Of a stretch of 58,779 nucleotides of DNA, positions 3,278 to 57,683 are shown piece after piece (the stretch's first letter is position 1; the number at the start of each line of letters is the position of its first letter). A model generated the notes under the pieces. The model saw only the letters and a program-made list of their open reading frames with translations. It searched no databases and was not told where the DNA came from. The translations under genes and the position numbers were made by a program. Source of the DNA: Candidatus Desantisbacteria bacterium CG1_02_49_89 (GTDB lineage: Bacteria > Desantisbacteria > UBA1551); NCBI GenBank assembly GCA_001871075.1, contig MNUP01000123.1, positions 1 to 58,779 on the forward strand. The letters run 5' to 3'.

Positions 3278-3907
3278 ATGAATTTTAAAAAAGTTCCTCT
3301 TACCGCGATCAGGCGGCTTTCCATTTACGCGAGGATGCTCGCGGGACTTGAAGCGGATGGAAAGCAGCAGGTTTCTTCAAGGGATCTGGGAGAAACAGCA
3401 AGCATACCTTCCACGCAGGTCCGCAAAGACCTCGCGTATTTCGGGCAGTTCGGCAAAAGAGGAAGCGGCTATTCGGTAAAGGAACTGGGCTTCAGGCTGA
3501 GGAAGATCCTGGGCATTGACCGCGCCTGGAATGTCGCGCTTGTGGGCGCGGGGAACCTCGGAAGGGCGCTCTTTTCTTACCCGGGGTTTAGCAAGCAGGG
3601 TTTCCGCATAGTCGCGGTTTTTGACAACAGCCCCGGCAAGGTCAACAAGTCCTGGAAAGGCACCAGGATACAGAGCATAAAAGAGTTAAGTAAGACGGTA
3701 AGGGAAAAGAATATATCCATCGGAATAGTAGCTGTGCCTGCGTCAGGCGCCCAGGAAGTCGCGGACGAAATGTGCAAAGCAGGAATAAAAGCAGTGCTCA
3801 ATTTCGCGCCTAAAAGGCTGAAAGTACCGACGGGCTGCATGCAGGCGAACGTTGATTTAGCGATTGAACTCGAAAATTTTTCCTATTACCTTTCAAAACT
3901 CAGATGA
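3278..3907 (+). CDS. rex: Redox-sensing transcriptional repressor Rex
   Basis: RRLSIY, QVRKDLAYFGQFGKRGSGY, VGAGNLGRAL and LNFAP motifs. Confidence 0.97.
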   Translation: MNFKKVPLTAIRRLSIYARMLAGLEADGKQQVSSRDLGETASIPSTQVRKDLAYFGQFGKRGSGYSVKELGFRLRKILGIDRAWNVALVGAGNLGRALFSYPGFSKQGFRIVAVFDNSPGKVNKSWKGTRIQSIKELSKTVREKNISIGIVAVPASGAQEVADEMCKAGIKAVLNFAPKRLKVPTGCMQANVDLAIELENFSYYLSKLR

Positions 3908-4965
3908 AAACCTTCTTTTTAACCCAACCGGACCTAAATAAATTCCTGGCTTCCATGCTTGGCAAGGGCTGTGAACTGTTCGCTCCGTTCAGGGTGATGG
4001 ACAGCATACGCCTTGAAAAGATCAATGACGCTTCAAAGCTGGGCGAGATCGTTCTTGACGGGGTCAGGGCTGACCAGCCGATGAAGTCCTTTTTCTTCTA
4101 CACCAAAGAAACAGTCGCAATCCTGCCGAAATCAGCGGCAAATCCCAATAAACCAGTAAAAAGACTTATAGTCGGCGCGAAGGGATGCGATCTGCATGCC
4201 CTTAAAGCGTTTGACAAGGCATACCTTGAAGAGGGTATAGTGCCTGAGCCTTTCTACCAGGAAAGAAGGCAGTCCACGTACATAATCGGCAGCGACTGCG
4301 GCTATTGCTTAGATTCGTGCTTCTGCACTTTGCTGGGTTCAAAACCGTTCCCGGTCGAAGGTTTTGACCTCAACCTTTCAAGCGCGGATGGCGGGTTCGT
4401 GATGGACGTGGGTTCGGACAAAGGCGAGGAGCTTATTGACGAGATGGGCAGGAGCGGGATCTCCGTCTCCGAAGTGCTTTCGCAGCAGATAGACGCGAGG
4501 AACAGGAAAAGGGATGAACTTACAAAACGCCTGGCAGAGGCAAATAAAGAGTTCGAGGTGCCTAAAAAATTCGATGACCTGTGCAGGCTTGCTTTCAATT
4601 CAGAGGTATGGAAAGGCCTTGCGGACGAGAAATGCGTCCAGTGCAACGGATGCCTGCATACCTGCCCCACCTGTTACTGTTTCCTTCTTTACGACACGAA
4701 GAAACAGGATATTTCTGAAAGGGTGAGGATATGGGACGCGTGCATAAACTCGGGTTACGGAAGGGTGGCAGGGGGAGCGAACCCGCGCCCGACTTTACAA
4801 GCCAGGCTGCGCCACAGGTTCTTCCACAAGTTCCTGTATTTCTTTGACAATTTCAATATGTTCGCGTGCAGCGGGTGCGGCAGGTGCTTCAATGTGTGCC
4901 CTGGCAAGATCGAAATACGCGACACCTTTAGACAGATTAGCTCAAAGGTCAAAGCTCAAAGCTGA
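3904..4965 (+). CDS. AsrA / sulfhydrogenase beta-like 4Fe-4S protein
   Basis: GAKGCDL, CVQCNGCLHTCPTCYCF, RHRFFHKF and CSGCGRCFNVCP motifs. Confidence 0.85.
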   Translation: MKTFFLTQPDLNKFLASMLGKGCELFAPFRVMDSIRLEKINDASKLGEIVLDGVRADQPMKSFFFYTKETVAILPKSAANPNKPVKRLIVGAKGCDLHALKAFDKAYLEEGIVPEPFYQERRQSTYIIGSDCGYCLDSCFCTLLGSKPFPVEGFDLNLSSADGGFVMDVGSDKGEELIDEMGRSGISVSEVLSQQIDARNRKRDELTKRLAEANKEFEVPKKFDDLCRLAFNSEVWKGLADEKCVQCNGCLHTCPTCYCFLLYDTKKQDISERVRIWDACINSGYGRVAGGANPRPTLQARLRHRFFHKFLYFFDNFNMFACSGCGRCFNVCPGKIEIRDTFRQISSKVKAQS

Positions 4966-40868: not shown

Positions 40869-42860
40869 ATGCAGACTAATGAAATTACTGCAACGCAGAA
40901 ATTACTGAATATCGGAATGGCGCTTACTGTATTTTTATCGCTGTTTGGGGTGATGTTCTTCATCCTTGTGGACAACAACGAGGACCTGGTGCGGGTCGCG
41001 TCCGTGCAGGTGCTGGTCCTTGTTATGGCGGTTCTGTGGCTGGCAAGAAAACTATGGAAGGGAGATCCCGGGTTCGCGAAGACCCCTCTCAACCTGCCGA
41101 TAATAGCGTTCTTCTGCGCCGGGCTTATTTCCCTGGTAAAGGCGGTCAACCCGTACCAGGGCCTATCCGAGCTTCTCACTCTCTCCGCTTATTTTGTATT
41201 GTTTTTTCTGATAGTCAATAATTTTAACAACGAGTCTTCTGTTAACAATTTTCTGACAACAATTCTTATTTTAACGGTAATTGTTTCAGCGCACAGCATC
41301 TGCCAGTACCTTCACCTGGATTTCCTGTGGTTCATGTTCCCGCCTGACGCGTCCTCGGCAAGGGTTTCCTCCGTGTTCGGGAACGCGGATTTCCTGGGCG
41401 GGTACCTTGCCATGGTTTTCCCGATTGCGTTCCTGCTCTTCCTTTTCAGGAAGAGGAAGACCTTTTACGGCATTGCTTCAGCCCTGATATTCACGAGCCT
41501 TATCCTTACCTTCACGCGCAGCGCGTGGGTCTCATGGGGCCTGTCGCTCTGTTTCATGCTTGCGATCCTGGCTGTTTTCCGGCCGGATGTGATAAAGCGC
41601 AACGCCGGGCTGCTCGCTGGCAGTATTGTCTGCTTCGTTGTTTTCGCGGTAATACTCAATTACGCCAGGGGTGGCGCCATTTTTTCGCGGCTTGCGGCAA
41701 TTTTCAACTGGAAGGAATACAGCGTGCAGGTAAGGTTCAACCTGTGGCGCACCGCTCTGGGTGTGTTCAAGAAAAGCCCGTTGATCGGCATCGGCTTTGA
41801 TAATTTCAAGATTGTGGCGCAGGGCTGCAGGATACACAACGAGTACCTGCAGATACTTGCTGAAACCGGGATACTGGGGCTGGGAATTTTCATATGGGTT
41901 ATTTTCGCCTATTTCAGACAAGGTTTCAAAAGCCTTAAAGTCCTGACTCCCTACAGGCAGGTCCTTGTCATTGCTTTTATGTCCTCCGCGGTTGCCTTCC
42001 TCGCGGACAGCCTTTTCTGCTTCCCGCTGCACAGGGTATCGCACAACGTGCTGTTCTGGGGTTTGGCAGGAATGACGGTAGCTCTGAGCAGAATAGAGTC
42101 AGAGAGTCCCGCCTCATCGGCGGGTCGCCGAAGTGGCGACAACGTGTCAGAGCCAGAAGCCAATTCAAATAATCCAGGATCCAGGATCCAGGATCCAGGA
42201 TCAAAACCGCACGCAGGCGTTTGGGGAAAGGTGCTGGCAATTGCGGTGGTTGCGGGAGCGGCATTCGCTGTTTTCATTGTCGCGCGGAACTTTATAGGGG
42301 TGTATTTCTACCAGAAGGGCTTTGAGATGAACCAGTATGCTGACAGGAGCCCTGAAGTGCGGCAGAAAACGATCCAGGCATTTGAAAGGGCCGCAAAGCT
42401 CGCGCCGTTCCACTACCAGATACAGCACGACTGGGCTGTTGTGGCGATTGAATCCGGGGACCTGAAAAAGGGAATAAAAGCGATGAAGTGGTCTGAAAAG
42501 CTTTACCCGGGCAAGCTGCCTGACCTGCGTCTTCACCTGGGCCTGCTGTATTACGAAACAGGCAGGTTTGATGACGCGGAAAAGACCTGGAAGGAAACAA
42601 TAGACAAATTCCCGGATTGCGCGCAGGCGTATTTCTACCTGGGCGGGTTCTTCATAAACAGGAACCAGCTGGACGAAGGGGTAAAGATGTGCAGGCGGGC
42701 GTCCGAGCTTGACCCCGGCAACCTTGAGTATTACAGGGTGCTTGCGAAGGTATATTACAGGACGGGTGAACTGAAAGCAGCGAAGGAAACAGTGAGCAGG
42801 GGGCTTGCGGCTGCGCCGAATGATGTTGAATTGCAGAAAATGGATAAGGCATTAAGGTAG
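40869..42860 (+). CDS. O-antigen ligase-like (Wzy_C) membrane protein with TPRs
   Basis: SVFGNADFLGGY, TFTRSAW, R..LW..PLIGIG and HNEYLQILAETG motifs, with a TPR tail. Confidence 0.85.
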   Translation: MQTNEITATQKLLNIGMALTVFLSLFGVMFFILVDNNEDLVRVASVQVLVLVMAVLWLARKLWKGDPGFAKTPLNLPIIAFFCAGLISLVKAVNPYQGLSELLTLSAYFVLFFLIVNNFNNESSVNNFLTTILILTVIVSAHSICQYLHLDFLWFMFPPDASSARVSSVFGNADFLGGYLAMVFPIAFLLFLFRKRKTFYGIASALIFTSLILTFTRSAWVSWGLSLCFMLAILAVFRPDVIKRNAGLLAGSIVCFVVFAVILNYARGGAIFSRLAAIFNWKEYSVQVRFNLWRTALGVFKKSPLIGIGFDNFKIVAQGCRIHNEYLQILAETGILGLGIFIWVIFAYFRQGFKSLKVLTPYRQVLVIAFMSSAVAFLADSLFCFPLHRVSHNVLFWGLAGMTVALSRIESESPASSAGRRSGDNVSEPEANSNNPGSRIQDPGSKPHAGVWGKVLAIAVVAGAAFAVFIVARNFIGVYFYQKGFEMNQYADRSPEVRQKTIQAFERAAKLAPFHYQIQHDWAVVAIESGDLKKGIKAMKWSEKLYPGKLPDLRLHLGLLYYETGRFDDAEKTWKETIDKFPDCAQAYFYLGGFFINRNQLDEGVKMCRRASELDPGNLEYYRVLAKVYYRTGELKAAKETVSRGLAAAPNDVELQKMDKALR

Positions 42861-42906
42861 CCGCAACCTTCAGGTTGCGTTCACGCAGGCTAAAGCCTGC
42901 GGCTAC
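42857..42906. repeat. GTAG REP doublet (REPIN-like) supplying a stop codon
   Basis: GTAGCCGCAACCTTCAGGTTGCG-TTCA-CGCAGGCTAAAGCCTGCGGCTAC. Confidence 0.8.
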
Positions 42907-50225: not shown

Positions 50226-50230
50226 AAATA

Positions 50231-50313
50231 AACCACGGAGGCACTGAGGCACGGAGAATTATTAGAGCCATAGAGTCAAAGTAGAAACTCTGTGTCTCCG
50301 TGTCTCTGTGGTT
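50231..50313. repeat. Empty 9-mer inverted tandem-repeat element
   Basis: ACCACGGAGGCACTGAGGCACGGAG ... CTCTGTGTCTCCGTGTCTCTGTGGT. Confidence 0.75.
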
Positions 50314-50327
50314 ATTCTGGAGGATTT

Positions 50328-52630: not shown

Positions 52631-52712
52631 GTAGTTGAAAGTTGAAAGCTAATCTAAAAATAGTTCCTTCATTCATAATTCATAACTCATAATTCATAAT
52701 TGGGGGTAGAAT

Positions 52713-53264
52713 ATGAAAGTTCTGGCGATACTGGGGAGCCGCAATCCTGACGGGCAGACCGCGAAAGCGGTAAAGGCCTTGCTTGCGGGTGTGGAAGAAG
52801 CAGGGGCGCAGATGGAGCAGGTGTTCCTCCCGCAGATAAAAATAGAGCACTGCGAGCAGGAGGGCAAGGATGGCTGGGGTTTATGCACAAAAGAGGGGAA
52901 GTGCGTTTTAAAGGACGATTTTGCCTCGGTGGCTGAAAAGATCAGGAATGCAGACGCAGTTGTGTTTGCAACGCCGGTATACTTTAGTGATCTGAGCGAA
53001 AGCCTGCGGGCTTTCCTGGACCGCCTGCGCAGGATATGTATGCACGAAAACGGCAGAAAAGGGATAGGCGGAAAAGACACAGTCGGCGTGTGCGTTGCCG
53101 GAGGAGGAGGCGGCGGGGCTCCGGAATGCTGTGCCAGTCTTCAGAAAATACTTGGTATAATCGGTTTTAACGTCATAGACATTATCCCGGCGCGCAGGCA
53201 GAACCTGGACATGAAGACGAAGGTGCTGAAGATCGTGGGCAAATGGCTTGTCACGCAAAAATAA
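52713..53264 (+). CDS. Flavodoxin-like / NADPH-dependent FMN reductase family protein
   Basis: GSRNPDGQT, CVLKDDF, ADAVVFATPVYF and FLDRL motifs. Confidence 0.88.
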   Translation: MKVLAILGSRNPDGQTAKAVKALLAGVEEAGAQMEQVFLPQIKIEHCEQEGKDGWGLCTKEGKCVLKDDFASVAEKIRNADAVVFATPVYFSDLSESLRAFLDRLRRICMHENGRKGIGGKDTVGVCVAGGGGGGAPECCASLQKILGIIGFNVIDIIPARRQNLDMKTKVLKIVGKWLVTQK

Positions 53265-53396
53265 ACCACAGAGGCCACTGAGAAAAATCTTTCGCCACTG
53301 AGAGCACTGAAGGCACTGAGTTTTTGTAACTCAAACCTTCAGGTTTGACGGTAGATTATTAAATATAAGATTCAATATTTAATAAAAAGAGAGAAA

Positions 53397-54462
53397 ATGA
53401 AGAAAATATTTTTAATAACAATTACTACTTTTTGTTTAGCAGCTAACTTATACTCAGCTAAAAAAGTGGTTGTTGTTGGTGATAAATTAAATGTATATTC
53501 AGAAAATGGTAGTGAATTATTTGAAATAGATTTACATGTTCAACCATTCGATATAAAGATTTTTTCAGAAGAGAGTCATGCAGATTGTAAGAGCTATTAT
53601 GATAATGGCAAGGTAAAAAGAATCGAATATTTCTTTAGAAAAAAACCAGCAGGATTTGTTGATTTTACCAGAACTGGCGAGATTAAAAAAGCTTTTATTA
53701 TCTATAAAACTGGATTTGAAACTGATATATACTATGGTGGCGGAAGACAAGTTAAGGAGATAATTAAAAATGTAGGTTTAATCAGAAAAGGATATCCTGC
53801 AGAATATCACTATTTCTTTTCTATGAGAGGGGAATTGAATAGAATAGATTTGTATTATAAAGAATCCGAACAGTTTTACATTCTTAAAGAGGATATTCTT
53901 TTTGAAGGCAAGAAGGCAATAATAAGGAATGTTTTAAATATTAGAGATGAAGAATATAGGGTCTATTCATGCGTAATTGATGAATTTGAGAAGCGTCCAG
54001 AAAAATCGAAATGGAAATTTTTAGTTGTTCAAGATGAAACCACATTATATTTTAATGATAAATTTAGCCAAAAAACGGTAGATTTTTTTGAAAAAGAATC
54101 AAAAGAAAAATTGTCAGAAGATATTATTGCGGATTTTTCAAACCAAAATAAAAGACCGGAGACCTTATAAATTATCAAATAAATTTAAAACAAATGTAAA
54201 TATATTTTTAATTTCAAAGGAAAGTAAAGAAGAAATTTTTAATAGAGAGAAAGGATGGGAATATTTTTACAAAATATATCCCGATTCCACTGGTATAGCG
54301 GAGATTTCTAGGGTAGGATTTAATAGAACTGAGGACACAGCCTTTGTTTATTATGGAATCAGTTTTGATTATGGACACGGTGGAATAGGGTATTATATAT
54401 TATTGAATAAAATAAATGACAAGTGGGAAATTGTAAAAAAAGTAATGGTATGGATAGCATAA
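53397..54462 (+). pseudogene. AT-rich secreted hypothetical protein, frameshifted near 54160
   Basis: Signal peptide in 53397-54170. The C-terminal GWEYFYKIYP..SRVGFN..WIA domain continues in another frame (54088-54462). Confidence 0.6.
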
Positions 54463-54657
54463 TAAATTGAGTGATAGACAGAATTAATATAGCTTTTTAA
54501 TTTTAATTCTCTCAGGGCTGAAGCCCTGAGTTACAATTTCTCAGTGAATTCAGTGCGTTAGTCCCTGCGTTTAGGTTTGAATAAACAAACCTGCAGGGGT
54601 CCTCAGTGGCAAAGTGTATTTCTCTGTGTCTCCGTGCCTCTGTGGTGAGGAGTTTAC

Positions 54658-56058
54658 ATGAAAGATATTCTTGAAGCTATACGCGACAGGGCGAAGAAGA
54701 AGGGCGTCAGTTTCATGGACGCGAGGTTCGTCGAGAACGAATCCACAAGCATCAGCCTGCAGGACGGCAAGGCGGACAAGGTATCGTCAGGCAAAAGCGC
54801 GGGCATCGGCGTAAGGGTTATTTCAAGCGGCGCCTGGGGTTTCGCGACAACCAACGAGACCGCGCTGAAAAGCGCTGAGGATTGCCTTGACCAGGCGATA
54901 AGCATGGCAGACGCGTCCGCTGAAAAAGGCAGGGTCGTGGAGGTAGCAAAGGTAAGCCCGGTGATCGACGCGGTGAAGGCGAAATTTGAGATCGACCCCC
55001 GCTCCGTCCCTTTTAAGGAAAAGGTGGACAAAGTCGTCATGTTCGAGAGCGAGGCAAGAAAGGTTGCCCCGGAAAAAATATCCAATACGATCGCCGGGTA
55101 CGGCGATATCTGGCAGAGGGAAGTGATCTGCAACACGTACGGGACCCTTGTGGAGAATGAATATGTCCGCACCCATACATATATAATGGTTGTTACAAAA
55201 GAAGGGGCGCTAAGGCAAAGGGCGTCCGAGCACGACGCGATTGTCGGCGGATTTGAGCTTATCAGAAGGATAGAGCCGGAAAATTTCAGCGTGAAGGCCG
55301 CAAAAAGGGCTGTGGCGCTGCTGAGCGCGAAAAGGGCGCCTTCGGGCATGTTTCCTGTGCTCCTGCACCCGGATATTGTTGGCCTTTTCACCCACGAAGC
55401 TATCGGGCATAACGCGGAGGCGGACGGGGTTATGGCAGGCGTGTCTATACTTGAGGGAAGGGTCGGGCAGAAAGTGGCTTCAGAACTCGTGACGATAGTT
55501 GACGACGCGACTATTGAAGGAATGTGGGGGTCATATAAATACGATTCAGAAGGAGTTCCCGGCAGGAGAAGGGTCCTTGTCGAAAACGGGGTGTTAAAAG
55601 GTTTCATGCACAGCCTTGAAACCGCCGCGAAATTCAACGCTGAGCCCAACGGGAGCGCGAGGGCTCAGAATTTCAATAACAGGCCTATCGTGCGAATGAG
55701 CAATACGAATATCCAACCCGGTAAACAGCCTTACGCGGAACTTCTGAAAAGCATTGACAACGGAGTTATGCTGACCAAGGGGCTGGGGGGTTACGTGAAC
55801 CCTAACAAAGGGCAGTTCACGTTCAGCGCGGGTGAGGGCTGGATGATACGGAAAGGCGAGCTTGCAGAGCACATAAGGGACGTGAATATGTCCGGTATCC
55901 TGCTTGAAACCCTGCAGAAAATTGACGGCGTCTCGAAGGAATATGACCCGGATACACTTAAGGGCGGGATGTGCGGCAAGGGCGGCCAGGGAATGTTTGT
56001 TGGCGCCGGCGGTCCGTATGTCCGGGTGAAGGAACTGATGATAGGCGGCCAGGAGTGA
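54658..56058 (+). CDS. tldD: TldD metalloprotease
   Basis: GAWGFA, HEAIGHNAEAD, DSEGV, PIVRMSNT and CGKGGQ motifs. Confidence 0.93.
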   Translation: MKDILEAIRDRAKKKGVSFMDARFVENESTSISLQDGKADKVSSGKSAGIGVRVISSGAWGFATTNETALKSAEDCLDQAISMADASAEKGRVVEVAKVSPVIDAVKAKFEIDPRSVPFKEKVDKVVMFESEARKVAPEKISNTIAGYGDIWQREVICNTYGTLVENEYVRTHTYIMVVTKEGALRQRASEHDAIVGGFELIRRIEPENFSVKAAKRAVALLSAKRAPSGMFPVLLHPDIVGLFTHEAIGHNAEADGVMAGVSILEGRVGQKVASELVTIVDDATIEGMWGSYKYDSEGVPGRRRVLVENGVLKGFMHSLETAAKFNAEPNGSARAQNFNNRPIVRMSNTNIQPGKQPYAELLKSIDNGVMLTKGLGGYVNPNKGQFTFSAGEGWMIRKGELAEHIRDVNMSGILLETLQKIDGVSKEYDPDTLKGGMCGKGGQGMFVGAGGPYVRVKELMIGGQE

Positions 56059-57462: not shown

Positions 57463-57683
57463 ATACTCGTGCATCGTGCATCGTTCTTCGTGCATCGTAA
57501 ATACCTCCTCGCCCCTTGCCTGCCCGCTAATCTTGGTGGAGGGCGGGAGAGGATGAAAGGTGAGGGGTTTAGGGTAACTCAGGGCTTTAGCCCTGAGCAA
57601 GTCAGTTTAAGTTCTCTTAAGTTCCCTGTTGAAAATTTTTTATCCGTGGAAATCCGTGGCTGAATTTTTTCCAGGAGGAGATC

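What the first reader, a model, noticed from the sequence alone, without database searches (positions are those of the whole stretch)
53265..54646. AT-rich cargo gene enclosed by three concentric inverted-repeat shells
Seen in the sequence, left arms in order: A = ACCACAGAGGCCACTGAG (53265), B = GCCACTGAGAGCACTGAAGGCACTGAG (~53294-53320), C = TGTAACTCAAACCTTCAGGTTTGA (53325-53348). After the ~1.1-kb AT-rich gene the right arms come in mirror order: C' = TCAGGGCTGAAGCCCTGAGTTACA (54512-54535), B' = CTCAGTGAATTCAGTGC[44-bp hairpin insert]CTCAGTGGCAAAG (54540-54614), A' = CTCTGTGTCTCCGTGCCTCTGTGGT (to 54646). C and C' share TGTAACTCA-nnn-CTTCAG-nnn-TGA with compensatory stem changes (AAC/GTT vs GGG/CCC). 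Empty elements of similar design occur elsewhere (A-type at 50231-50313, REP doublet at 42857-42906). Inference: successive insertions into the centre of the previous element, with the innermost REP doublet carrying a foreign gene. That would be a gene-capture system with no integrase or transposase nearby. This is my best candidate for an undescribed system in the window.
Basis: partly seen in the sequence, partly recalled or inferred. Interest (0 to 1): 0.82.

Follow-up and report, generated by a model that had tools for sequence, protein, structure and literature searches.

The report
Gene lodged inside a REP doublet
An AT-rich, already broken gene sits exactly in the middle of one copy of a common bacterial repeat (a REP doublet whose transposase lies elsewhere in the genome); this explains the mirrored arms and makes a dedicated gene-capture system unlikely.

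Summary
1,163 nt of 27% GC DNA (53349-54511) lie between mirrored arms that co-fold far better than shuffled controls. The arms are not a new system. The innermost pair is a REP doublet (REPIN) of a GTAAC-headed family. That family has 121 units in this genome, 116 of them outside long ORFs, and 19 tight inverted doublets against 0.11 expected. Two RAYT transposase genes on contig C23 are flanked by the same REPs. The outer "shells" A and B are one array of CAC-octamers, a genome-wide module. Intact array-REPIN-array palindromes without cargo exist at C7 and C29. The cargo replaces the 2-nt linker of such a doublet. It is single-copy, has almost no homologues, and is one secreted-protein gene split by a frameshift. 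No empty allele was seen in four runs, and no close relatives exist for comparison. Convergent REPs and arrays also bracket ordinary genes. My best reading is a one-off insertion of foreign DNA at a REPIN centre. RAYT-driven mobilisation stays possible. Interest is moderate. By-products are a cross-phylum REP family and selfish small genes nested in palindromes.

The parts
52713..53264 (+). Upstream gene, FMN reductase / flavodoxin-like. Its stop codon (53262-53264) abuts arm A.
   Evidence: ORF. Pfam FMN_red 7.7e-24.
53265..53320 (+).
   Evidence: Sequence. 103 A-type arms and 39 B-type arms genome-wide. Pairs with 54540-54646 in the co-fold.
53326..53348 (+). REP unit, AACC type: GTAAC head, 7-bp stem TCAAACC/GGTTTGA, loop TTCA.
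   Evidence: It is one of 121 units, and 24 have exactly this stem and loop.
53349..54511 (+). Cargo segment: 1,163 nt, 27% GC, single copy in the genome. It replaces the 2-nt linker of a REP doublet.
   Evidence: GC. blastn finds only itself. Position relative to intact doublets.
53351..53385 (+). GTAG (53351-53354) followed by a perfect 11-bp A/T stem (53356-53366 / 53375-53385) at the left end of the cargo.
   Evidence: Fold z -4.3; 0 of 200 shuffles fold as well. The right end has no significant hairpin (z -0.36).
53397..54170 (+). Cargo ORF1, 257 aa. The N-terminus looks like a signal peptide (by eye). MORN_2 match is weak and below cut-off. It is the 5' part of a frameshifted gene.
   Evidence: Residues 184-253 align to P0002 216-284.
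54088..54462 (+). Cargo ORF2, 124 aa, in the +1 frame. It is the 3' part of the same gene, a C-terminal domain shared with P0002.
   Evidence: 53% identity to P0002 274-384, E 3e-36. 58% over 88 aa.
54512..54534 (-). REP unit, GGGC type: hairpin TCAGGGC-TGAA-GCCCTGA followed by GTTAC.
   Evidence: the commonest type (33 units GGGC/TTCA).
54540..54646 (-). Right CAC-octamer array: B' (54540-54556 and 54602-54610), split by a 45-nt hairpin insert (54557-54601), then A' (54622-54646). Its end supplies GAGGAG ahead of the tldD start.
   Evidence: Sequence. The insert folds on its own and is single copy.
54658..56058 (+). Downstream gene tldD.
   Evidence: Pfam PmbA_TldD domains, 2.1e-68.
57574..57596 (+). 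Solo REP unit of the same family, downstream of pmbA.

Best explanation
The mirrored arms are ordinary intergenic repeats of this genome. A REPIN lies in the centre of a palindrome built from tandem CAC-octamers. A REPIN here is an inverted doublet of GTAAC-headed REP hairpins, a family served in trans by two RAYT (REP-associated tyrosine transposase) genes on contig C23. Into the 2-nt linker of that REPIN, at the tip of the structure that single-stranded DNA would form, a 1,163-bp piece of low-GC, probably foreign DNA was inserted once. It carries one gene for a secreted two-domain protein of unknown function, and that gene is now split by a frameshift. Shown: the identity of the arms, the RAYT link, the exact central position, the single copy and the broken frame. 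Inferred: the entry route. I think a break at the linker or hairpin tip, followed by joining of foreign DNA, is most likely. The break could come from the RAYT, whose E. coli relative cuts BIME linkers and exchanges strands in vitro, or from a hairpin nuclease. After entry the split doublet stayed put. It is a one-off accident at a fragile or targeted palindrome centre, not a dedicated gene-capture system.
For: REP family: 121 units, 116 outside long ORFs, 19 tight convergent doublets against 0.11 simulated. RAYT: two 160-aa genes on C23 bracketed by the same REPs and REP arrays. They match Pfam Y1_Tnp at 1.7e-10 and NCBIfam REP_Tyr_transpos at 94.7 bits against a cut-off of 80; the best PDB hit is 4er8, TnpArep. 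RAYTs 54-56% identical lie beside the same REPs in two other MAGs. Central position: intact doublets read GTAAC-hp-TA-hp-GTTAC, and here the linker is replaced by 1,163 nt. The same array-REP-REP-array palindrome is intact at C7 and C29, with fold z of -7.3 and -8.6. The arms of the finding co-fold at -72.4 against -33.5 +/- 3.1 for shuffles. Both flanking REPs carry a B-type array, which only 13 of 39 B arms and about a tenth of REP heads do. Foreign and decaying: 27% GC against 48.9% for the genome. There is no paralogue. Only two distant homologues turned up in two large protein searches. P0002 aligns across the ORF1/ORF2 boundary. The same frame-shifted sequence, without indels, is in contigs of 4 of 4 runs. 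One-off: only 3 of 214 low-GC islands are enclosed by convergent GTAAC REPs, and the other two are the RAYT genes. Literature: REP singlets can arise by destruction of a doublet through insertion (PMC3116915, passages). TnpAREP cleaves linker sites and exchanges strands (PMC3333891, passages). REPs are insertion targets (PMC1525189, passages).
Against: No empty allele or pre-insertion state was seen, so 'insertion' rests on comparison with paralogous intact copies, not on an orthologous empty site. There is no target duplication and no recognisable end pair. Only the left end has a significant hairpin. The break-and-join step is pure inference. Convergent REPs and arrays also flank ordinary genes: HIT-like on C21, a kinase pair on C42, a HisF-like gene on C76 and ptsHI-like genes in G001. 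Two-sided bracketing can therefore arise without any insertion into a palindrome. The REP-gene-REP geometry is also that of the RAYT genes themselves, which keeps RAYT-mediated mobilisation of the whole unit alive. One X2 contig joins 52699 to 54618, which may hint at a different indel unit (FMN reductase gene plus cargo).
Confidence: 0.55

Rival explanations
1. REP-cargo-REP is itself a mobile or recombining unit. Either the RAYT in trans moves the whole split REPIN with its passenger, or foreign DNA bounded by the same widely shared REP was integrated by REP x REP strand exchange.
For: The geometry equals that of RAYT copy 1, which has a REP(+) on one side and REP(-) units on the other, and of a RAYT in L091. 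Both REP units are perfect copies of the commonest types. The identical REP motif occurs in 80 fetched loci from 39 assemblies labelled as about ten phyla, many from groundwater, and 104 times in G001, so donors with matching REPs exist. TnpAREP exchanges strands between iREP and linker sites in vitro (PMC3333891).
Against: The unit is single copy. No joint with locus-specific flanks was seen in four runs: all 53348->54512 joints have sides of 25 nt or less, so they are other doublets. The outer arrays match those of the resident intact copies at C7 and C29, as expected for a resident doublet. No cargo homologue was found in five REP-bearing genomes, plasmids or phages. No long convergent pair in 80 foreign loci holds low-GC cargo other than a RAYT.
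Confidence: 0.2
2. There was no insertion into a palindrome. The cargo gene is a resident (accessory) gene, and REP units and octamer arrays accumulated independently in its two intergenic regions. The mirror order is coincidence plus the usual head-outward placement.
For: Ordinary genes are bracketed the same way. 51 of 1,867 crude gene calls have matching inverted arms within 150 nt of both ends, against 22 of 1,865 shuffled pairings. Most arms are solo: 103 A arms, but only 8 short palindromes.
Against: This needs AACC and GGGC partner types, B-type arrays on both sides, and A-type outer ends on both sides, all in register (55 pairs). Non-doublet neighbour pairs show no preference for the convergent orientation. 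Intact copies of exactly this composite exist.
Confidence: 0.13
3. The arms act in RNA. In a flavodoxin-cargo-tldD transcript the two arm blocks pair into a long stem, like the stems around rRNA intervening sequences, and processing there separates or silences the cargo message.
For: The arms also co-fold strongly as RNA, at -120.9 kcal/mol. Small genes typical of intervening sequences (four-helix-bundle TIGR02436) are likewise nested between inverted arms in this genome. The A-type palindrome at 50229-50316 folds much better as + strand RNA (-43.1) than as - strand RNA (-26.3).
Against: The finding's arms show no strand asymmetry (-120.9 against -118.3). No RNA data were examined. Rfam gives nothing here. 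This reading explains a use of the arms, not how the arrangement arose.
Confidence: 0.08
4. Assembly artefact: a chimeric contig put AT-rich DNA of another organism between repeats.
For: Repeats at both junctions are places where assemblers err, and the window comes from a 150-contig MAG.
Against: Independent Logan contigs bridge the left junction in X2 and X24 and the right junction in X2 and X22. One X2 contig spans 52688-54644 without a difference, though X2 may be the source sample.
Confidence: 0.02

Closest known systems
REPIN-RAYT systems (REP doublets forming hairpins, with REP-associated tyrosine transposases; Pseudomonas and E. coli REPtrons)
   Same: A short hairpin with a conserved 5' head, hundreds of extragenic copies, over-represented inverted doublets, and RAYT genes flanked by the same REPs.
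   Different: The head is GTAAC, not GTAG. The linker is only 2 nt, against the 71- and 110-bp spacings reported for SBW25 (PMC3116915). There are two RAYT copies, 86% identical. The same REP occurs in MAGs labelled as many phyla. One doublet holds 1.16 kb with a gene. The three-term search listed no REPIN/RAYT paper that uses the word 'cargo', and 'passenger' has 0 occurrences in PMC3333891.
BIMEs (bacterial interspersed mosaic elements of E. coli)
   Same: A mosaic of REPs in alternating orientation together with other short motifs in intergenic regions. TnpAREP cuts in the linkers (PMC3333891).
   Different: Here the accompanying motifs are tandem 8-10-nt CAC-type arrays with AACCAC outer ends, which I have not seen described (recall only).
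REP-targeting insertion sequences (IS1397, ISKpn1, ISPpu9/10, ISPsy8, IS621)
   Same: Foreign DNA is inserted at a fixed point inside a REP or REP cluster, and joining the two flanks rebuilds the repeat (PMC1525189).
   Different: The insert has no transposase, no paired ends and only one copy.
IS200/IS605 elements and their transposase-less derivatives
   Same: They depend on a Y1 HUH transposase, have subterminal hairpins, make no target duplication, and allow action in trans.
   Different: Their two end hairpins lie on the same strand. Here the REPs are inverted, and the unit is single copy.
Intervening sequences with four-helix-bundle or GxxExxY genes
   Same: A small low-GC gene sits in the loop of a long inverted repeat. 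This genome has 5 TIGR02436 and 5 GxxExxY genes nested that way.
   Different: The cargo belongs to neither family and is much larger. The link of TIGR02436 to rRNA intervening sequences is from recall.

Membership tests
REP / REPIN-RAYT system | Short imperfect palindrome with a conserved head 5' of the hairpin | tested here: met
   GTAAC plus a 7-bp stem and a 4-nt loop. Stems vary by compensatory change (GGGC, AACC, GACC, AGGC and others). The head is GTAAC rather than the canonical GTAG.
REP / REPIN-RAYT system | High copy number, extragenic | tested here: met
   121 units. 116 lie outside long ORFs, although long ORFs cover 82% of the genome.
REP / REPIN-RAYT system | Inverted doublets over-represented (the REPIN) | tested here: met
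   19 tight convergent doublets against a mean of 0.11 (maximum 2) in 500 random placements. 31 tight (+,-) pairs in 80 loci of other genomes.
REP / REPIN-RAYT system | Cognate RAYT gene flanked by the same REPs | tested here: met
   C23:1740-2222 and 3766-4248. NCBIfam REP_Tyr_transpos 94.7 bits, cut-off 80. Pfam Y1_Tnp. PDB 4er8.
REP / REPIN-RAYT system | Mobility (excision or insertion polymorphism) | tested here: inconclusive
   Contig-level data from 4 runs show no locus-specific empty joint. Contigs drop rare variants, and the joints seen are other doublets.
IS200/IS605-type transposon carrying a passenger | Left and right end hairpins on the same strand | tested here: not met
   The two REPs are in inverted orientation.
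IS200/IS605-type transposon carrying a passenger | Repeated copies of the element | tested here: not met
   The cargo DNA and protein are single copy.
MITE (for the octamer-array arms) | Terminal inverted repeats, many copies, target-site duplication | tested here: inconclusive
   Inverted arms with AACCAC...GTGGTT ends and 103 A-type arms are present. No duplication was evident by eye at the outer ends. Most arms are solo.
Integron gene cassette | attC site at the 3' end of the cassette and an IntI integrase with attI | not tested
   No IntI search was run. The arms lie on both sides and are genome-wide REPs, which is not the cassette layout.
Intervening-sequence-like nested gene | Gene of the four-helix-bundle or GxxExxY family in the loop of a long stem | tested here: not met
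   The stem is present, but the cargo matches neither family.

The most novel reading that the evidence does not exclude
The GTAAC REP occurs letter for letter in MAGs labelled as about ten phyla from similar habitats. Together with its RAYT it may act as a portable recombination site: DNA bounded by, or captured between, REP units would be integrated at the linker of resident REPINs by RAYT strand exchange. The flavodoxin-tldD cargo would then be the first caught product of an integrase-free route of gene exchange. More broadly, palindrome centres in this genome may be landing pads for low-GC genes (GxxExxY, four-helix-bundle, DUF559, Y1 transposases, and this cargo).
Probability: 0.08. Interest if true: 0.8.

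Novelty: new member of a known kind. Interest (0 to 1): 0.38.

Why it matters
If the main reading holds, this is a clean natural example of a REPIN destroyed at its exact centre by gene-sized foreign DNA. It shows that palindrome tips or linkers can be entry points for horizontally acquired genes without an integrase. It adds a GTAAC-headed REP-RAYT family from a barely sampled phylum (2 genomes in the reference set). The same family also appears in many other phyla. [quoted passage not shown] It does not open a new class of gene-capture system.

Tried and rejected
- **Rfam:** the scan of 53000-54900 at E<=1 gave only a chance miRNA match (E 0.49). Scans of L037, L039, L001 and L038 gave only a sub-threshold c-di-GMP riboswitch match.
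- **Synteny in relatives:** of 40 other genomes only one is of the same order, and the best TldD identity is 35%. The phylum holds 2 genomes. Four metagenome loci with TldD at 52-54% identity have no flavodoxin or cargo match upstream. The fifth, identical, starts inside tldD.
- **Empty allele or circle:** the joints 53348/53349->54512 in all four runs have shorter sides of 22-25 nt and linkers TA, TT, TG or TTAGT. They are therefore other doublets, not this locus.
- **X2 joint 52699->54618:** depth is 65.3, the shorter side is 29 nt, and what lies between is not known. I cannot count it. Its two 20-mers occur 214 and 42 times in the genome (at most 2 mismatches), and no matching junction is in the assembly. 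Depth differences in X2 (46.3 against 68-72) are not repeated in X22-X24. They may reflect GC bias or a second strain.
- **Cargo homologues elsewhere:** none in G001 (P0002 as query). With ORF2 as query: none in five REP-bearing genomes, plasmids or phages. The protein atlas gave only unnamed clusters.
- **Promoter and terminator scan:** 8 promoter-like sites against 6.0 +/- 2.6 expected, and 0 terminators.
- **General inverted-repeat flanking of low-GC islands:** 6 of 75 against 5 of 222 controls at score >=14. This is weak, and the hits are mostly Y1 transposase and GxxExxY genes.
- **Viral-contig scan for the cargo's left-end hairpin:** 0 matches.
- **Not done:** structure prediction and complex prediction were not run. 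Paper supplements were not opened; Table S3 of PMC3116915 on doublet organisation might bear on linker lengths.
- **Hand-made gene calls and names:** gene calls are crude ORF calls of my own. Genes within 150 nt of a contig end were dropped (1,867 of 1,976 kept). HisF-like, HIT-like, RadC-like and ptsHI-like names are by eye, not from a family library.
Full report
**Observation**

Reading 52900-55000 confirms every arm and coordinate in the finding. The insert 53349-54511 has 26-30% GC, against 53-56% on either side and 48.9% for the 2.48-Mb, 150-contig genome in which the window is contig C19. The repeat finder reports inverted arms of 39 nt (79%) and 27 nt (78%) across the insert. I took the left block (53262-53348) and the right block (54512-54648) from the file and co-folded them as DNA. 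They give -72.4 kcal/mol with 55 intermolecular pairs, against -33.5 +/- 3.1 (best -45.0) for 200 shuffles of the right block. A pairs with A', B with B', and GTAAC with GTTAC. Each REP folds on itself, and the 45-nt insert in B' (54557-54601) forms its own hairpin.

**What the innermost arms are**

- GTAACTCA heads occur 175 times in the genome, most of them followed by a 7-bp stem and a 4-nt loop.
- A strict scan finds 121 units. The stems vary by compensatory change: GGGC about 68, AACC 32, then GACC, AGGC and others.
- 116 of the 121 units lie outside long ORFs, although long ORFs cover 82% of the genome.
- 19 units pairs form tight convergent doublets, against 0.11 expected (maximum 2 in 500 simulations).
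- 14 doublets have a 2-nt linker (TA 11, TG 2, CA 1). 10 of these 14 pair an AACC unit with a GGGC unit.

This is the REP/REPIN pattern described for Pseudomonas (PMC3116915, abstract and passages).

The transposase is present, though not nearby. Contig C23 carries two 160-aa genes that are 86% identical.

- One is bracketed by a REP on one side and seven tandem REP units on the other.
- The second lies between REP doublets.
- They match Pfam Y1_Tnp (1.7e-10).
- They pass the NCBIfam equivalog model for REP-associated tyrosine transposase (94.7 bits, cut-off 80).
- Their best solved relative is E. coli TnpArep, 4er8.
- Eight further, weaker Y1-like matches lie on other contigs and none on C19.
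- At least 147 GTAG-headed hairpins of other REP families exist.

**What the outer arms are**

Listing all doublets with their flanks shows that the 48-nt doublet is the constant core. On either side it is adjoined by variable modules, most of them 2-4 tandem copies of an 8-10-nt unit with a CAC core (CACTGAG, CACAGAG, CACGGAT, CACGAAT, AACACAGGTT and others), often ending outward in AACCAC.

- B-type arms number 39, and 13 of them abut a REP head.
- A-type arms number 103, and 8 pairs form short empty palindromes such as 50232-50312.
- B arms are usually preceded by another CAC unit, so A and B at this locus are best read as one array.

Two loci, C7:1729-1840 and C29:17982-18094, carry the same array-REP-REP-array composite intact. 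They fold into a long stem tipped by the two REP hairpins (z -7.3 and -8.6). Compared with these, the locus of the finding differs in two ways. The 2-nt linker is replaced by 1,163 nt, and a 45-nt hairpin sits in the right array. Nesting into hairpin centres is a habit of this genome: 16 REP units have their 4-nt loop replaced by a 32-nt module or by 57-74-nt versions of it.

**The cargo**

- ORF1 (53397-54170, 257 aa) starts with a signal-peptide-like stretch (by eye).
- It has only a sub-threshold MORN_2 match.
- It has no homologue but itself among 396 candidates in the word-indexed search.
- It has one distant hit (P0003, 35% over residues 62-180) in the full HMMER scan.
- ORF2 (54088-54462, +1 frame) is 53-58% identical to the C-terminus of P0002, a 384-aa protein with a HEAT_2 N-terminal part.
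- P0002 216-284 aligns to ORF1 184-253, and P0002 274-384 aligns to ORF2 13-124. The two ORFs are therefore one gene with a frameshift near 54124-54170.
- Contigs of 4 of 4 runs cover that place without an indel, so it is not an assembly slip.
- The DNA and the protein are single copy.
- No homologue was found in G001, five other REP-bearing genomes, plasmids or phages.
- The left end of the cargo carries GTAG followed by a perfect 11-bp A/T stem (z -4.3). The right end has nothing comparable.

**Tests of a 'capture system'**

*Generality.* Of 214 low-GC islands, only this one and the two RAYT genes are enclosed by convergent GTAAC REPs. Of 75 internal islands, 6 have inverted flanks at score >=14, against 5 of 222 controls.

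*Bracketing of ordinary genes at native GC.*
- Convergent REPs bracket a HIT-like gene on C21 and a kinase plus a membrane protein on C42.
- They bracket a RadC-like gene and an antiporter in other genomes, and ptsHI-like genes in G001.
- A-type arms bracket a HisF-like gene and a sugar-isomerase-like gene.
- Non-doublet neighbouring REPs show all four orientation pairs about equally.

*Relatives.* None is usable.

*Population.*
- The left junction is bridged in X2 and X24, and the right junction in X2 and X22.
- X2 may be the source sample.
- No listed X23 contig bridges either junction by the 31-nt rule.
- All 'skips 1163' joints have sides of 25 nt or less, and so are other doublets.

The single locus stands, but there is no system around it.

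**Mechanism**

I commit to a one-off insertion at the REPIN linker (0.55). Comparison with the intact paralogues makes a split doublet much more likely than independent build-up on both sides. Independent build-up would need matching partner types, B arrays on both sides and A ends on both sides, all in register. How the DNA got in is inferred.

- The linker is the tip of the structure formed in single-stranded DNA.
- The E. coli RAYT cuts BIME linkers at C|T and exchanges strands in vitro (PMC3333891, passages).
- The right junction here happens to read C|T. I give that little weight.
- REPs are known insertion targets (PMC1525189).
- The REPIN authors foresaw doublets being destroyed by insertion (PMC3116915).

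The main rival (0.2) is that REP-cargo-REP is itself moved or recombined through its REPs. The geometry equals that of RAYT copy 1 and of the RAYT in L091, and matching REPs exist in many potential donors. Against it stand the single copy, the resident-type outer arrays and the lack of any second site. Independent accumulation (0.13), an RNA-level role of the arms (0.08, not exclusive) and an assembly artefact (0.02) follow.

**By-products**

80 loci were returned, from 39 assemblies. Their labels include Desantisbacteria, Thermodesulfobacteriota/Deltaproteobacteria, anammox Planctomycetota, Nitrospinota, Zixiibacteriota, Armatimonadia, Stahlbacteria, WOR-3, Patescibacteria, Gammaproteobacteria and one archaeon. 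I estimate about two chance matches for that collection size. G001 has 104 matches against 0 for the reversed control. RAYTs 54-56% identical lie beside these REPs in two MAGs labelled delta proteobacterium / Deltaproteobacteria. Mis-binning could inflate the range.

*Low-GC genes nested in palindromes.*
- Among 1,867 crude gene calls, 51 have matching inverted arms within 150 nt of both ends, against 22 of 1,865 shuffled pairings.
- Low-GC genes are enriched: 12 of 172 against 39 of 1,695, odds ratio 3.2, p 0.0016.
- The 16 such genes with GC <=0.42 are 6 Y1/RAYT-like, 5 four-helix-bundle (TIGR02436), 3 GxxExxY, 1 DUF559 and 1 ISL3-like transposase. Three of the six Y1/RAYT-like genes were classed only through the RAYT-query matches, not through a family library.
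- All 5 GxxExxY genes of the genome are bracketed by octamer arrays. The arrays' sequence differs from copy to copy but is mirrored within each copy.
- One literature search for 'GxxExxY' found 3 papers, none on this topic by title.

The cargo of the finding is the odd one out: it is larger and belongs to none of these families.

**Verdict**

The structure is real and neatly nested, but its parts belong to a known kind (REP/REPIN-RAYT within a BIME-like mosaic).

Noticed in passing
G000 C114:9957-10310, C56:6520-6867, C114:7409-7753, C17:2671-3009, C45:174-521: All 5 GxxExxY (TIGR04256) genes are bracketed within about 20-110 nt by convergent tandem-octamer arrays. The unit sequence differs between copies but is mirrored within each copy. 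Two copies have the right arm duplicated.
   Followed up: partly
G000 genome-wide (e.g. L001:8050-8427, L159, L160, L161, L162, L163, L164, L044): The 16 low-GC genes with matching inverted arms at both ends are 6 Y1/RAYT-like (3 of them classed only by RAYT-query matches), 5 four-helix-bundle TIGR02436, 3 GxxExxY, 1 DUF559 and 1 ISL3-like. Low-GC genes are bracketed 12/172 against 39/1695 for the rest.
   Followed up: partly
L048-L127 (genome contigs) and G001: The identical GTAAC REP motif occurs in 39 assemblies labelled as about ten phyla, and 104 times in G001 (reversed control 0). RAYTs 54-56% identical lie beside the REPs in L091 and L081. This is unexpected for a system thought to be mostly vertical. 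Binning errors are not excluded.
   Followed up: partly
G000, e.g. C111:20284, C111:22756, C23:3690, C71:44683, C110:4112: 16 REP units have their 4-nt loop replaced by a 32-nt module (TTyTCGAAGACCCGCCAATCTTTAAGGAGGGA) or by 57-74-nt nested versions. The core TCGAAGAYCC occurs 102 times, also in GTAG-type hairpins.
   Followed up: partly
L037 (G000 C111:20150-22900), units at L037:215-444 and 440-705: A second low-GC block (two ORFs, 199 and 267 aa) lies between convergent long-loop REP variants of complementary types. It is preceded by two tandem copies of a structured unit of about 228 nt that ends in a T-run. There is no Rfam match, and the outer arms do not match.
   Followed up: partly
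window 52664-52701 and genome-wide: A CATAAyT heptamer array lies just upstream of the FMN-reductase start. The 82-nt upstream stretch gives 172 blastn hits in the genome and very high depth in all runs.
   Followed up: no
window 52699 -> 54618 (run X2): One contig (depth 65.3, shorter side 29 nt) joins these places and skips the FMN-reductase gene, the inner arms and the cargo. X2 also has two tldD alleles (68.2 and 42.4) and a lower depth (46.3) on the 52688-54644 contig. It may be a strain without the 1.9-kb block or another repeat locus.
   Followed up: partly
window 50229-50316: The empty A-type palindrome between the upstream gene and serS folds much better as + strand RNA (-43.1) than as - strand RNA (-26.3). 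The mismatches are G-U on the transcribed strand. Other A-type palindromes show the opposite or no bias, and gene orientation was not checked.
   Followed up: partly
window 53351-53385: The cargo's left end has GTAG followed by a perfect 11-bp all-A/T stem. It looks like a REP of an AT-rich donor. There were no matches in viral contigs.
   Followed up: partly
L001 (G000 C23) 2232-2404 and 4258-4460: Next to the RAYT genes are seven tandem direct REP units at 25-nt spacing and three tandem 60-nt doublet units. This looks like local amplification beside the transposase.
   Followed up: no
L001:1449-1560 (-): A match to the c-di-GMP-I-GGC riboswitch lies below the gathering score (42.1 against 59 bits, E 3.9e-7), upstream of pilin-like ORFs.
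   Followed up: no
window 42848-42906 and genome-wide: A GTAG-headed REP doublet of another family. At least 147 GTAG-headed perfect hairpins of several subtypes and 10 Y1-transposase-like matches are in the genome.
   Followed up: partly
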